A DNA stretch of 64,000 nucleotides, taken from Promethearchaeota archaeon. Lineage in GTDB: Archaea > Asgardarchaeota > Lokiarchaeia > Sigyniarchaeales > SOKP01. Shown piece by piece: positions 28,516 through 33,788 of the stretch. Made by a program: the position numbers and the translations under genes. The notes beneath the pieces were generated by a model. The model made no database searches, was not told the DNA's origin, and was given only the letters and a program-made list of their open reading frames with translations. Within the stretch, counting starts at the first letter, position 1, and every line of letters begins with the position of its first letter. The stretch spans positions 1 to 64,000 of the forward strand of contig JAHLWS010000056.1 of the NCBI GenBank assembly GCA_019057795.1. Reading direction: 5' to 3'.

Positions 28516-30049
28516 CAGTATCTAAGTATTTATTTTTTTTTATTATTATTTTCGATGGTCAACAAGCCGACATTATTTGTAATTTATCCGACCACCCCAC
28601 GTGATTTTTTCTCTGATGAAAGAAATGATTCCATCAAGTAGTCTTGATTTTGAACTAATGTCCAAACTGGTCCCTTACCTTGATTTCTACTAGAAATTTG
28701 AATTAGCTTTTTATTCATTTTCCATGAATTATAAAGGAGCATTCTTACCAACATATCCAAGTATCGGACATTATCATAGTTTGACTTCCAACGACGATTA
28801 ATTCGATTTAAGTCGGAGAAACTCGTTTCGATCAACCATCGTCGACGATAAAATAGTGCCGTGCGGGACGCCCAAGAGCTTGTCTTGCCTCGAGGCTTCT
28901 CGGTAGTCATTATTAAGAATAAACGCTTTCGAGCATCGTCCAACGATATTCTTCCCGCTTTATAATCTCGCTTGACTCCTTGAAGAGTGAATTGATTTTT
29001 TGCTTTTATTATCACATAAACATGGTGAGAAAATCGACATTTTGCAGCCGTCTTGCTAGAAAACGTGTATTTCCGCACTCGAGCATGCGTTCCCTTGAGA
29101 TAATCGGTAAGGAATTGCTTGATCTTTTTATATTTCTTGGCAGGAACGATGACCTCACCCCCCATTCCTTTAATCCTATCTAATAATTCAGCTCTATAGA
29201 ATTCTCTATCCATCAACACGAAGCCTAACTTAAATCCTAGCTTAAGTAATTTTTCAAGAAACTTTAAGATGATGGGTATTTTAGACTGACCCGTTGCCAC
29301 TTGTTCCAATCCTGCATAAAGATGTGTTTCTCGGGACAATATCGAGAAGCCGAGGTAATGACGCATTTTTAGCGTTCCTTTCTGCCGGTTCGTTCCCTTG
29401 ATCATGTTATCCTCTCTCTTTCCAAAATAAGGATGCTCAGTGAAATCAATGAGCACATTTACCTTCTTTGAGATGAACCCTTGTTTTAAGGCATCCAAGA
29501 GCTGCCCATCCAAGCACCCACGTAAGATCTTCTGCGCTTTCCTAAATCCAATCTTGCGGAGATACTTGTTGACTTCTGTTTGGTGAGGTATCGCGCGCTT
29601 TCTCCGTCCATCCGCAAATATTTTTGGTCTTCCTCCTCTATGGCTCATTAATTGGGCGTTGAGCAATTCACTCGTGTCATGAATGGACCTACCTAGTAAT
29701 TCTGAGAAGAAGAACACCTTCAAAAACTCCTCCTCTTCATATCTCGAATTCTTGCCCTTTTTAAAACGCCAGGTGCGAGAGGTAACTTCATCACAAAACT
29801 TTTTAAAAAAAGACAGCATATTATGATTTGAAAGAAGTGATTTTATGCCCGAGTTCCTAACCGAATTAGGAAATATATTGCCTGGTAGCATATATTAATA
29901 ATATCACTTCTTTCTTAAAAGTTTTAAGGTAGATTTCCGATGGAAATCAATTTAAAGTTTGAATATAAGCATTTGTAAAATTGAAATAAAATTTACGAAA
30001 GATAAGATTCAGTTCAAGGGGTTTCTAACATCTAAATCCTTTGATACTG
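28516..30049 (-). mobile_element. ISH3-family (IS4-like) insertion sequence, 1534 bp
   Basis: Imperfect 17-bp TIRs: CAGTATCTAAGTATTTA at 28516 and reverse complement CAGTATCAAAGGATTTA ending at 30049 (15/17). Inserted in a T-rich tract. Confidence 0.85.
28584..29891 (-). CDS. DDE transposase, ISH3/IS4 group
   Basis: IDFTEHPYFG, MDREFY, YRRRWLIETSF (YREK-like). Confidence 0.92.
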   Translation of the reverse strand: MLPGNIFPNSVRNSGIKSLLSNHNMLSFFKKFCDEVTSRTWRFKKGKNSRYEEEEFLKVFFFSELLGRSIHDTSELLNAQLMSHRGGRPKIFADGRRKRAIPHQTEVNKYLRKIGFRKAQKILRGCLDGQLLDALKQGFISKKVNVLIDFTEHPYFGKREDNMIKGTNRQKGTLKMRHYLGFSILSRETHLYAGLEQVATGQSKIPIILKFLEKLLKLGFKLGFVLMDREFYRAELLDRIKGMGGEVIVPAKKYKKIKQFLTDYLKGTHARVRKYTFSSKTAAKCRFSHHVYVIIKAKNQFTLQGVKRDYKAGRISLDDARKRLFLIMTTEKPRGKTSSWASRTALFYRRRWLIETSFSDLNRINRRWKSNYDNVRYLDMLVRMLLYNSWKMNKKLIQISSRNQGKGPVWTLVQNQDYLMESFLSSEKKSRGVVG

Positions 30050-30911: not shown

Positions 30912-31235
30912 CACCTGAGATATATACCCACCTTTTTGTTCTATTTCTCGTCGCCAAGAAATAGGTGGGGCATCAAACTAAGCGGCCTACCTAAAACTCG
31001 TTCCAAATACTCATCGCTTTCATTTGGCCTTGCACCAAGGTTTTAGCTCGTTCCAACCGTTCCCGATTACAATTTCTCTGGCTTAAATCCAAGTCATTAA
31101 TGTACGTAAAAGGGCAGTGCCGTTTCAGTTGCTAAAATACGATTTTCACCGTAGTAGTTATCTACTCCTTGCTTGGAAAGTGAGGTGAGGTTCCTCAGCA
31201 GTTCAATGACTACCGTCAGCCCCATATTTCATGTG
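30912..31235 (-). ncRNA. rnpB: Archaeal RNase P RNA (type A-like)
   Basis: On the minus strand: P2 UGGGGC/GCCCCA; P4 GAGGAACCUCACC pairing with AACAAAAAGGUGGGU; GCAACUGAAAC; GGUGCAAGGCCAAAU; GGUAGGCCGCUUAG; P9 with GAAA loop; P19 with GCGA loop; P1 CACAUGAAAUAU/AUAUCUCAGGUG. Confidence 0.93.
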
Positions 31236-31441
31236 ATTTTCTTTTTTTCGCTTTTTACTTTCCAATTAATACATAGTTCCATAACTATTTATAATTTAAG
31301 GTTATCTTGCAACGGTGTTATTTACAAAATTAAAAATACTTTTGAATTTAAAGCTCAATCTATATATCACTGGGATTGTTTTTTATAGAGAATAAAAAAA
31401 AAGTTATTAATTATTTTATTTATTTGTTAGAATGTCTTGAA

Positions 31442-33626
31442 CTAGGATAGAGCAAGTAAGTTTCCAAGCAACCCAGCTCCGCCATTGAACATTAGAAGTA
31501 AACCCATGAAAATCGAAGCTGTCAACGACATCACTACTAACAGCGTGTTTATACTTGGTCCTGCGGTGTCCTTTCATCGATAATTGGTTTTCAATACCAA
31601 AGACCTTAAATGGGTCACCGACCGTATCTCCCGTTATACTAGCTTTATGTACTTCAGTCCCTTTTCCTCCAAGGTTACCGTCCTCTATCCATTTCTTTGC
31701 GTTATCCCATGCCCCACTTATGCTTTTTGCTCGAAATAAGCTATAATCTGCATTGGACATAAACACTGCAAACACAAATCCGGATAAGATAGCTCCAGCT
31801 AAGAATGCTACTAAGGAAGCTACGCCAAAAAGAATTCCAACACCAATAGGAACAGTTATAGAAATAATGCTTGGTATAATTAACTCACGTAGTGAGCCTT
31901 TTGTTGCAATATCAATTGTTTTATGGAAATCAGCGGGTTCTTCACCAGTTAATATTTTTGGATTTTCTTCAAATTGCCTACGAATTTCATCGACCATCTT
32001 CGCTGCGTTTCTTTGGACAGCTAAGACTAACAACGCTGAAAATAGCGCTGGGATAACAACTCCTATAAAGGCACCTACTAGAACATTGACGCTTAATAAA
32101 TCCACAACAGTAATACCAGCCTCTTCTGCAAAGGAAAACATTAAAGCCATGACGGTTAAGTTCGCAGCTCCAATTGCGAATCCCTTTGTAATTGCTTTGG
32201 CGGTGTTACCAGCAGAATCTAATTTATCAGCAGTTCTAATTACTTCATCACCTAATTCTCCTTGTTCTGCAATAGCTCTTGCATTGTCAACGATTGGGCC
32301 ATACGCATCATTTGTTACTATTGTTCCTACAATTGCTAACATTCCAACAGCAGCCATTGCTACACCAAATACACCAGCTAACCAAAATGCAATTGTCATA
32401 GCAAGTATAACTCCTATTGCAGGAGGAACTACACTTAGAAGTCCATATGAGAAACCAGAAAGAATTACAACTGCATGACCTTCTTTAGCAGCATGAGCTA
32501 TGTTTTGTACTGGTTTCCTATCATCCCGAGTAAAATAATCACTCGTAAAACCTAAAACTATACCAGATATAAGTCCAATCACTGATGTGCCCCATATTCG
32601 CCATAATAACCACATTTCATCGTCTCCTAATCCAATTGATAGGAAAATCGTTATTACAGCGGATAATGCAAAATAGATTAAAGTTGCTAAATAAGTTCCT
32701 GTGTTTAAAGCTTTTCCAGGTTCTTCAGAACCTTTATATTTTATTATGTATATTCCTATAAGCGAAGCAATTAGCCCTACGCCGCAAAAAACAACTGGAG
32801 CAACAATAAATACAGAGGTTCCTATAGTTGTTAATGTTACATTTGCGAAAGGTGCTTTAATAATACCTGCTACACCAAAGGCTGCTGCAAGCATCATTGC
32901 TGCAACAATGGATGCAACATAAGAATCGAATAGGTCACTGCCCATTCCAGCTATGTCACCAACATTATCACCTACATTATCAGCGATCGTTGCTGGATTT
33001 CTTGGATCATCTTCAGGTAGATTGTATTCAGCTTTTCCTACTAAATCAGCACCTACATCTGCTGTTTTCGTAAAAATTCCACCGCCACACTTCATAAATA
33101 AAGCTATACTACTGGCACCGAAGCTAAACCCTAACACAACAAGAGGAGACTGAAAAATCCAATAGATTATTGATACGCCTATTAAAGCAACTCCCACCAC
33201 GGCTAAACCCATTACTGCTCCTCCAAAAAATGCTACATCGAAACCGGCTTTTGTGCCCTTGGTACAACCTTGTGCTGCTCTCGTATTTGCTTTAACACCA
33301 ACATACATCCCTAACCAACCTGCGAGCATAGAACCCACACAACCAATTAAGTACGCTATCGCTTGTTCCCAATTTAATGTCCCAGGATTCGTCATATTAG
33401 GAAGTAAGAATAACATTACTAAAAAAAGTACTCCTACAAAGATTCCAAGAACTTTATATTGGACTTTTAAGTATGTTTTAGCCCCTTCTTCGATATATCC
33501 AGCGACTTCTTGCATTCTTTCGTTGCCAGGATCTTCTTTTAAAACTAAAGATCTAAAGTATACAGCAAGAACGATTGAAATTATCCCTGCGATTAGTGCA
33601 ACAATTAAAATTATTGGCACTGCCAT
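31442..33626 (-). CDS. hppA: Membrane-bound H+-translocating pyrophosphatase (K+-independent type); predicted spliced CDS complement(join(31442..31572,31607..31717,31748..33626)), 706 aa
   Basis: ADVGADLVGKAE, EDDPRN, DNVGDNVGD, GNTAKA (Lys indicates K+-independent). Removing the two inserts restores AGGAWDNAKK, GDTVGDPFKDTAGPS and a final TM helix ending in TAG at 31442-31444. Confidence 0.95.
31573..31606 (-). other. Putative BHB-type mRNA intron 2 (34 nt, frameshifting) in hppA
   Basis: Central helix CAUU/GAUG, bulges UA^A and AA^A, exon helix CGGUGACC/GGACACCG, intron helices GGU/AUC and UUGGU/ACCAA. Confidence 0.85.
31718..31747 (-). other. Putative BHB-type mRNA intron 1 (30 nt, in frame) in hppA
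   Basis: Central helix AUGC/GCAU, bulges AG^A and AA^G, exon helix AUGUCCA/UGG(G)GCAU, intron helices UU/AA and GCUU/GAGC. Confidence 0.85.
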
Positions 33627-33788
33627 TTTTATTCACTTTTTATTTTTTTTTATTTAAATTTTTATATTAAGATATAATTAATATTTATTCTATTAGCCTA
33701 ATTCCTATAAATTTTTTGAATTTTGTAAAATTATTGAACAAAAATGACGAAAGAATAGCAAAATTTCAAAAAGATTTAAAGAATACCT

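What the first reader, a model, noticed from the sequence alone, without database searches (positions are those of the whole stretch)
31573..31606. hppA intron 2: frameshifting 34-nt insert that gates the last catalytic motif and TM helix
The mRNA reads CGGUGACC CAUU UA^A GGU CU UUGGU AUUGAAA ACCAA UU AUC GAUG AA^A GGACACCG. A 4-nt AAGG repeat allows five equivalent placements, and the 31573-31606 placement gives a canonical BHB. Without splicing, DTAGPS and the final TM helix are replaced by an out-of-frame tail. Splicing would therefore be required for a working pump and could act as an on/off switch (inference).
Basis: partly seen in the sequence, partly recalled or inferred. Interest (0 to 1): 0.88.

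Follow-up and report, generated by a model that had tools for sequence, protein, structure and literature searches.

The report
tRNA-type mini-intron in Asgard pyrophosphatase gene
A 34-base insert that breaks the reading frame of the only membrane pyrophosphatase gene of a Loki-type Asgard archaeon has exactly the RNA shape cut by the tRNA-splicing enzyme. Comparison with three other natural copies shows the gene is still read as if the insert were removed, so its mRNA is almost certainly spliced, which in print is confirmed in archaea for only one coding sequence (cbf5).

Summary
Window 31573-31606 (minus strand) is a 34-nt frameshifting insert in the Lys codon of GDPFK|DTAGPS in the genome's single hppA gene. 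With its flanks it forms a full hBHBh' motif, and the canonical cuts restore the frame and a 706-aa protein.

All 41 other species genomes of the genus lack it. Three independent metagenome lineages (91-94% identical over the gene's exons) carry the identical insert.

- Among the four carriers, exon 3 differs almost only at synonymous sites of the spliced frame (42 syn : 3 nonsyn; pN/pS 0.02, against 2.0 in the unspliced frame).
- The spliced-frame stop is kept in all four.
- A 60-nt block covering the insert and the BHB-forming exon flanks is invariant.
- The genome encodes a catalytic EndA alpha subunit with the specificity-loop Lys, a His-less beta subunit, and RtcB.

Best reading (about 0.85): an obligatory EndA/RtcB-spliced pre-mRNA intron. 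The "on/off switch" idea has no support.

This scan already noted this stretch and the same kind of mini-intron in other genes of this genome. I re-verified acr3 and, in part, rpl11. Closest published case: the crenarchaeal cbf5 intron. Interest 0.76.

The parts
31416..33626 (-). Unspliced hppA ORF as it stands in the DNA (736 aa). It is the only H_PPase gene in the genome.
31748..33626 (-). Exon 1 of hppA, ending ...AAUGCAG.
31718..31747 (-). Intron 1: 30 nt, in frame, no stop, splitting NAG|GAWDNAKK. BHB with a perfect AUGC/GCAU central helix in this genome. The other three lineages have GCAA, which gives an A.A mismatch.
31607..31717 (-). Exon 2 (111 nt), ending ...GGUGACCCAUUUA.
31573..31606 (-). 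Intron 2 (the finding): 34 nt, frameshifting, inside the Lys codon of GDPFK|DTAGPS. Identical in all four intron-bearing lineages.
31564..31620 (-). Whole hBHBh' element of intron 2. Outer helix 31613-31620 with 31564-31571; central helix 31609-31612 with 31575-31578; bulges 31606-31608 and 31572-31574; inner hairpin within the intron.
31442..31572 (-). Exon 3: DTAGPS motif, last TM helix, and the spliced-frame stop TAG at 31442-31444.

Best explanation
The 34-nt insert is a bulge-helix-bulge (tRNA-type) intron in the hppA pre-mRNA.

Proposed mechanism:
1. After transcription, the last 14 nt of exon 2, the intron, and the first 9 nt of exon 3 fold into an hBHBh' element.
2. The heteromeric (alpha-beta)2 splicing endonuclease EndA cuts after the second base of each 3-nt bulge (UA^A and AA^A).
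3. RtcB joins the exons to give CCAUUUA|AGGACACC. This recreates the Lys codon AAG and the frame for DTAGPS, TM16 and the stop. The 34-nt intron is released, probably as a circle.
4. Only the spliced message encodes a complete 706-aa pump, so splicing is obligatory.

What is shown here: the structure, the exact restoration of the frame, selection on the spliced frame, and the presence of the enzymes. What is inferred from established EndA/RtcB biochemistry: the cleavage, the ligation and the circle.
For: 1. The hBHBh' geometry is canonical, and the cut sites give exactly the conserved junction. The chance rate is about 6e-4.
2. A second insert 111 nt upstream fits the same template at its only possible placement.
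3. The insert is real DNA. Besides the window's own record (NCBI/Logan), carrier contigs come from four separate JGI samples: L033, L034 (identical to L033), L035 and L041, which make three further lineages.
4. Among the four carrier lineages, exon 3 shows 42 synonymous against 3 nonsynonymous pairwise differences in the spliced frame (pN/pS 0.02). In the unspliced frame pN/pS is 2.0. Twelve of 15 variable sites fall on spliced-frame third positions (binomial about 3e-4, my arithmetic). The spliced-frame stop is kept (TAG three times, TAA once). In L041 the unspliced frame hits an early stop.
5. A 60-nt block (13 + 34 + 13 nt, the BHB with its exon helix) is invariant, while 12-20% of neighbouring sites vary.
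6. Carriers share synonymous states GGU, CCA and AAG. These states pair in the BHB, where the intronless alleles compared here (L004, L005, L036, L055-L057) have GGA and AAA, and most have CCC or CCU. Carriers also share ACC, but some intronless alleles have it too.
7. The machinery is present. The EndA alpha subunit has Tyr/His/Lys and the Lys aligned with K44 of the A. pernix specificity loop. A paralogue has the catalytic His replaced (beta). RtcB scores 561 bits (PMC5829648).
8. hppA is single copy in this genome.
9. Other genes of the same genome carry the same kind of insert. acr3 has a 31-nt strict BHB that restores ...GLFWEVPVML. The only uL11 gene is interrupted twice.
Against: - No RNA evidence. 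The spliced junction was absent from JGI metagenome contigs. Every intronless relative I fetched is genomic DNA with ordinary flanks.
- The intron is identical in all carriers, so there is no covariation within it.
- The thermodynamic MFE prefers a slipped register by 1 kcal/mol, and the z-score is only -2.
- BHB-like matches are common by chance, and genome-wide they are not enriched over a mirrored decoy. The motif alone proves little.
- How splicing competes with ribosomes on the nascent message is unknown.
Confidence: 0.85

Rival explanations
1. Recoding during translation. Either the ribosome hops from the Lys codon AAG before the insert to the AAG 34 nt downstream (as in T4 gene 60), or it reads the insert and makes a +1 shift at AAA-G just before GAC. 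The second route would give GDPFK-VFGIENQLSMK-DTAGPS.
For: Matching AAG take-off and landing codons exist because of the A|AGG repeat, and a hairpin lies between them. A +1 slip at AAA G GAC would reach the exon 3 frame (sequence). Selection on the exon 3 frame is equally compatible with recoding.
Against: - There is no stop codon after the take-off codon.
- Recoding does not explain the exact two-bulge, 4-bp geometry.
- It does not explain intron 1, which is in frame, has no repeat, and carries three changes that are all nonsynonymous if read through.
- It does not explain the BHB inserts in acr3 and rpl11.
- An 11-aa insertion next to a Lys that aligns with a substrate-binding residue of solved PPases would probably be harmful.
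Confidence: 0.05
2. The gene is a pseudogene, or a truncated pump, broken by a small insertion. The BHB-like fold is then coincidence or a relic.
For: The insert is absent from all 41 other species genomes of the genus and from 28 aligned orthologues. BHB-like matches are frequent by chance.
Against: - Four diverged carriers keep exon 3 under strong purifying selection in the spliced frame and keep its stop.
- Pairwise dN/dS between the window's gene and its relatives is 0.11-0.16 over the full length, and 0.04 over the 163 codons held for L035.
- It is the only hppA copy.
- A 60-nt block is invariant.
- Two inserts in one gene both fit the template.
Confidence: 0.05
3. A split gene. Exon 3 is translated separately as a small peptide that completes the pump in trans.
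For: None specific. Split membrane proteins do exist.
Against: In the exon 3 frame a TGA lies directly before AAG GAC. The first in-frame start (GTG/ATG in VVM) lies after the DTAGPS motif.
Confidence: 0.02

Closest known systems
BHB intron in the cbf5 (pseudouridine synthase) pre-mRNA of Crenarchaeota (Watanabe 2002; Yoshinari 2006; Yokobori 2009, PMC2738675)
   Same: A short intron (16-44 nt there, 34 nt here) inside a protein-coding sequence. It sits in the codon of a conserved functional residue and has a BHB motif. The host has a hetero-oligomeric EndA. Gain and loss are lineage-specific, and gene callers miss it.
   Different: A different phylum (Asgard/Promethearchaeota), a different gene (a membrane H+-PPase), and two introns in one gene. 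Presence or absence varies among near-identical strains, and the intron-bearing gene end is shuffled by recombination. Splicing is shown experimentally for cbf5 but not here.
Archaeal pre-tRNA and pre-rRNA BHB introns cut by EndA and joined by RtcB
   Same: The same hBHBh' geometry with cuts after the second base of each 3-nt bulge, and the same enzymes encoded in the genome. This genome is rich in tRNA introns: 16 of the 29 tRNAs that ARAGORN finds carry one.
   Different: The host RNA is an mRNA, the outer helix is made of coding sequence, and there is no tRNA body. No sequence similarity to other loci of the genome.
BHB intron in the 5' UTR of Haloferax volcanii HVO_1309 (PMC7714728)
   Same: An mRNA substrate of EndA.
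   Different: That one lies in the UTR (46 nt) and does not interrupt the coding frame. That paper states cbf5 is the only other mRNA case reported.
XBP1/HAC1 unconventional mRNA splicing in eukaryotes (IRE1 plus RtcB or Trl1); from my own knowledge
   Same: A small, spliceosome-independent, frame-changing intron (26 nt in XBP1). It is removed by a protein endonuclease, and the exons are joined by a tRNA ligase.
   Different: The nuclease is IRE1, which recognises twin stem-loops, not EndA on a BHB. That system is a proven stress switch, and no regulation is shown here.
Translational bypassing in phage T4 gene 60; from my own knowledge
   Same: A short untranslated gap between matching codons, with a hairpin.
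   Different: Gene 60 has a stop codon directly after the take-off codon and depends on a nascent-peptide signal. It has no BHB.

Membership tests
Archaeal BHB intron (EndA substrate) | Two 3-nt bulges on opposite strands, separated by a 4-bp helix and flanked by helices (hBHBh') | tested here: met
   Central helix CAUU/GAUG, bulges UA^A and AA^A, outer helix 7 pairs of 8, inner helices of 3 and 5 bp. The BHB register is within 1 kcal/mol of the MFE.
Archaeal BHB intron (EndA substrate) | Cuts after the second base of each bulge give a functional joined RNA | tested here: met
   The junction recreates AAG and GDPFKDTAGPS, giving a 706-aa protein, the length of many of the closest intronless orthologues.
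Archaeal BHB intron (EndA substrate) | The host encodes a splicing endonuclease with the catalytic triad, and an RtcB ligase | tested here: met
   Alpha subunit (C69) with Y/H/K and the loop Lys; beta-like paralogue (C74) without the His; RtcB (C70).
Archaeal BHB intron (EndA substrate) | Excision and ligation seen in RNA (junction reads, circular intron, in vitro cleavage) | not testable with these tools
The spliced junction is absent from JGI metagenome contigs.
Pre-mRNA BHB intron of the cbf5 kind | Lies inside a coding sequence that stays under selection in the spliced frame | tested here: met
   pN/pS is 0.02 in the spliced frame and 2.0 in the unspliced frame across four carriers, and the stop is conserved.
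Pre-mRNA BHB intron of the cbf5 kind | Structure conserved among carriers, ideally with compensatory changes | tested here: inconclusive
   The 60-nt element is invariant, which shows strong constraint but leaves no variation to covary; the synonymous exon states in carriers favour pairing compared with intronless alleles.
Programmed translational bypass (T4 gene 60 type) | Matching take-off and landing codons, with a stop codon directly after take-off | tested here: not met
   The AAG...AAG match is present, but the codon after take-off is GUC, not a stop.
Pseudogene | Relaxed selection and decay downstream of the lesion | tested here: not met

The most novel reading that the evidence does not exclude
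This Loki-type Asgard archaeon routinely splices protein-coding mRNAs with the tRNA-splicing machinery. It carries a set of young 29-34-nt BHB mini-introns (hppA twice, acr3, rpl11, and others noted by the scan). They sit in conserved motifs, are polymorphic between near-identical strains, and spread or are lost by homologous recombination of the intron-bearing gene segment. Intron 2 is invariant even in its loops, which hints at a constraint beyond EndA recognition, for example a role for the excised RNA or control of splicing.
Probability: 0.5. Interest if true: 0.88.

Novelty: new member of a known kind. Interest (0 to 1): 0.76.

Why it matters
- In the papers I could search, EndA-dependent splicing of an archaeal coding sequence is confirmed only for cbf5 in Crenarchaeota. 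One further case lies in a 5' UTR (PMC2738675, PMC7714728).
- Here a central energy-coupling pump in an Asgard archaeon, the closest prokaryotic relatives of eukaryotes, needs protein-only mRNA splicing to be made.
- Natural intron-plus and intron-minus alleles exist in nearly identical backgrounds, so gain, loss and the cost of such introns can be tested directly.
- It is also a practical warning. Gene callers report a 736-aa or 740-aa frameshifted product for these genes.

Tried and rejected
2. The exact spliced junction with the carriers' flanks (26 nt) gave no hit in JGI metagenome contigs.
3. The intron 2 pattern matched two contigs in the JGI metagenome scan, both hppA, and none in GTDB species genomes. 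It is therefore not a repeated mobile sequence. blastn-short found no related copy in the genome.
4. Candidate spliced cDNAs among cluster members (P0003, P0131, P0132) all proved to be ordinary intronless genomic alleles with neighbouring genes.
5. Genome-wide discovery by motif had no power. The strict BHB template gave 46,055 hits against 45,771 for a mirrored decoy. After an ORF-fusion filter the counts were 363 against 383. After a paralogue-spanning test they were 118 against 103. There was no enrichment at any stringency. The ORF-fusion filter missed both hppA introns and the acr3 intron. Intron 2 and acr3 failed its ORF thresholds, and intron 1 is in frame and stop-free, so no ORF test can see it.
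6. Split tblastn matches of hppA in two other genera (G028, G030) are ordinary loop insertions, not introns.
7. The split-gene reading was rejected because a TGA lies directly before exon 3 in its frame.

Full report
**What is there**

The minus strand of window 31416-33626 carries a membrane pyrophosphatase gene (Pfam H_PPase, E 2e-217). It is the only copy in a 4.95-Mb, 31.4% GC genome. An archaeal RNase P RNA lies about 180 nt downstream. The nearest database proteins are labelled Promethearchaeota or Lokiarchaeota.

Alignments to Pfam and to solved PPases stop at Lys674 of the 736-aa ORF. That residue aligns with residue 730 of the mung bean H+-PPase. After it, the ORF reads an unrelated tail.

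Removing 31573-31606 (34 nt) gives ...GDPFKDTAGPSINTLLVVMSLTASIF...ALS*, a 706-aa protein. A second insert of 30 nt (31718-31747), in frame, splits NAG|GAWDNAKK.

**The structure**

| Element | Sequence |
|---|---|
| Outer helix | CGGUGACC/GGACACCG, 7 pairs of 8 |
| Central helix | CAUU/GAUG |
| Bulges | UA^A and AA^A |
| Inner helices | GGU/AUC and UUGGU/ACCAA |

- The A|AGG repeat allows five equivalent deletions. The 31573-31606 placement is the canonical one.
- The BHB register costs -14.6 kcal/mol. The MFE is -15.6 and uses a slipped register. The z-score is a modest -2.
- My BHB template hits random site-length pairs at 1.1e-4 in this genome, so the five placements give about 6e-4.
- Intron 1 fits the same template at its only possible placement.

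**Is it real DNA, and how widespread is it?**

- All 28 orthologues aligned from species genomes of the genus and order lack both inserts.
- A DNA search of the 41 other species genomes of the genus matched only exon 2, in 23 of them, and never either insert.
- The 90% protein cluster of the window's ORF holds two other read-through products, P0122 (740 aa) and P0128.
- Their contigs are L033 and L034 (identical, from two JGI samples) and L035. A fourth contig, L041, came from a pattern scan. All carry both inserts.
- The four carriers are 91-94% identical over the gene's exons (blastn of whole gene regions gives 92-93%). This rules out an assembly artefact.

**Is the gene still read in the spliced frame?**

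- Among the four carriers, exon 3 shows 42 synonymous and 3 nonsynonymous pairwise differences in the spliced frame (pN/pS 0.02).
- The same nucleotides give pN/pS 2.0 in the unspliced continuation frame.
- Twelve of 15 variable sites are spliced-frame third positions, and one more is a synonymous first position.
- The two variable sites behind the three nonsynonymous pairwise differences fall in the last three codons, which vary in all homologues.
- The phase of variation in exon 2 continues into exon 3 only if 34 nt are skipped.
- The spliced-frame stop is conserved (TAG in three lineages, TAA in L041).
- The unspliced frame hits an early stop in L041.

This excludes a decaying pseudogene. 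The cell must restore the frame.

**Constraint on the element**

- Intron 2 is identical in all four lineages.
- The 13 nt on either side are also invariant, giving a 60-nt invariant block that matches the BHB with its exon helix. Neighbouring segments have 12-20% variable sites. At 14-16% per site, such a block has a chance of about 1e-4 or less.
- Carriers share the synonymous states GGU, CCA and AAG, which pair in the BHB. The intronless alleles I compared (L004, L005, L036, L055-L057) have GGA and AAA, and most have CCC or CCU. ACC is shared with some of them.
- Because nothing varies, there is no covariation.
- The invariance of loops and bulges goes beyond what a BHB needs, and I cannot explain it.

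Intron 1 has three variable sites. All three would be nonsynonymous if it were translated. One keeps a pair (G:U to A:U). One makes the central helix perfect only in this genome.

**Machinery**

- One EndA homologue (C69) aligns end to end with the catalytic alpha subunit of the Aeropyrum pernix (alpha-beta)2 enzyme. It keeps Tyr, His and Lys, and the Lys aligned with K44 of the specificity loop.
- That loop is reported as conserved in TACK and Asgard archaea and as responsible for broad substrate range (PMC5829648).
- The second homologue (C74) has Ser in place of the catalytic His, so it is beta-like.
- RtcB is present.
- The link between pre-mRNA splicing and hetero-oligomeric EndA was made for cbf5 (Yoshinari 2006, cited in PMC2738675).

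**Context in the genome**

Earlier notes of this scan list BHB mini-introns in other genes of this genome. I checked two myself.

- acr3 (C78:170202-170232, 31 nt) has a perfect central helix (GACU/GGUC) and 3-nt bulges. Its removal gives ...GTTMGLFWEVPVML.
- The single uL11 gene (C73) is interrupted twice.
  - Its first insert fits the template with one central-helix mismatch and gives GGPPIGPAVG.
  - For its second insert, the canonical cuts give 26 nt rather than a frame-restoring 25 or 28 nt (plus hand analysis). I leave this open.
- Motif-only genome scans had no power.

**History**

- On the 3' exons the carriers form a clade (support 0.97), sister to intronless alleles.
- On the 5' 1.9 kb, the window groups with intronless L036 (99.4% identical, support 0.98) and L033 groups with intronless L005 (support 0.98).
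- Along the locus, the window compared with L036 shows this pattern:

| Segment | Identity to L036 |
|---|---|
| Upstream genes | 91-97% |
| First 1.8 kb of hppA | about 100% |
| From about 60 nt before intron 1 to the RNase P gene | 82-91% |
| RNase P RNA gene | 100% |

This fits a single origin for the intron-bearing gene end, which then recombined among closely related backgrounds. Intron-plus and intron-minus alleles coexist in populations about 5% apart.

**Rivals**

- Recoding (a hop between the two AAG codons, or a +1 slip at AAA-G) would also satisfy selection on exon 3. It does not explain the exact BHB geometry, intron 1, or the other genes, and there is no stop after the take-off codon.
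- Separate translation of exon 3 is excluded by the TGA directly before it.
- I put EndA/RtcB splicing at 0.85.

**Novelty**

- Published confirmed cases of BHB introns in archaeal mRNAs are cbf5 (a coding sequence, Crenarchaeota) and the HVO_1309 5' UTR (PMC2738675, PMC7714728).
- Full-text searches found no report for Asgard protein genes. A 2026 preprint on Asgard tRNA introns does not treat mRNAs.
- This intron is therefore a new member of a known kind, in a lineage and on a scale that make it interesting.
- RNA proof is still missing.

Noticed in passing
window 31017-33662 compared with L036/L037: Recombination mosaic. The first 1.8 kb of hppA is about 100% identical to an intronless strain whose neighbouring genes are only 91-97% identical. 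The 3' end with both introns plus the intergenic region is 82-91% identical, and the RNase P gene is again 100%. The breakpoint lies about 60 nt upstream of intron 1.
   Followed up: partly
window 31573-31606 and 13 nt on each side: Intron 2 and its flanks are invariant in four lineages that differ at 12-20% of neighbouring sites. The loops and bulges are invariant too, which is more constraint than a BHB needs. Unexplained.
   Followed up: partly
window 31718-31747: The central helix of intron 1 is a perfect AUGC/GCAU only in this genome. The three other carriers have GCAA (an A.A mismatch), which makes a relaxed BHB. All three variable intron sites would be nonsynonymous if translated.
   Followed up: partly
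genome contig C78:170202-170232 (+), outside the window: acr3 is broken by a 31-nt insert with a strict BHB (GACU/GGUC, bulges AU^A and AU^U). Its removal gives ...GTTMGLFWEVPVML.
   Followed up: partly
genome contig C73:108800-108915 (-), outside the window: The only uL11 (rpl11) gene is interrupted twice. The first 30-nt insert fits a BHB with one central-helix mismatch. For the second, the canonical cut sites give 26 nt, which does not restore the frame (25 or 28 nt would).
   Followed up: partly
window 30912-31235 (-): An archaeal RNase P RNA gene (Rfam RF00373, 123.5 bits) lies about 180 nt downstream of hppA on the same strand.
   Followed up: no
window 32220-32250 (-), protein motif GNTAKAITKG: The pump has Lys at the position where K+-dependent PPases have Ala. 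It aligns with the K+-insensitive Pyrobaculum enzyme 8B37. It is therefore probably a K+-independent H+-PPase, not the 'K+-stimulated sodium pump' of the automatic names. The A/K rule is from my own knowledge.
   Followed up: no
whole genome: ARAGORN finds only 29 tRNA genes in a genome scored 100% complete, and 16 of them have introns. Many tRNA genes are probably hidden by multiple or non-canonical introns.
   Followed up: no
window 28584-29891 (-): A 435-aa ORF that looks like a transposase lies about 1 kb beyond the RNase P gene. Not examined.
   Followed up: no
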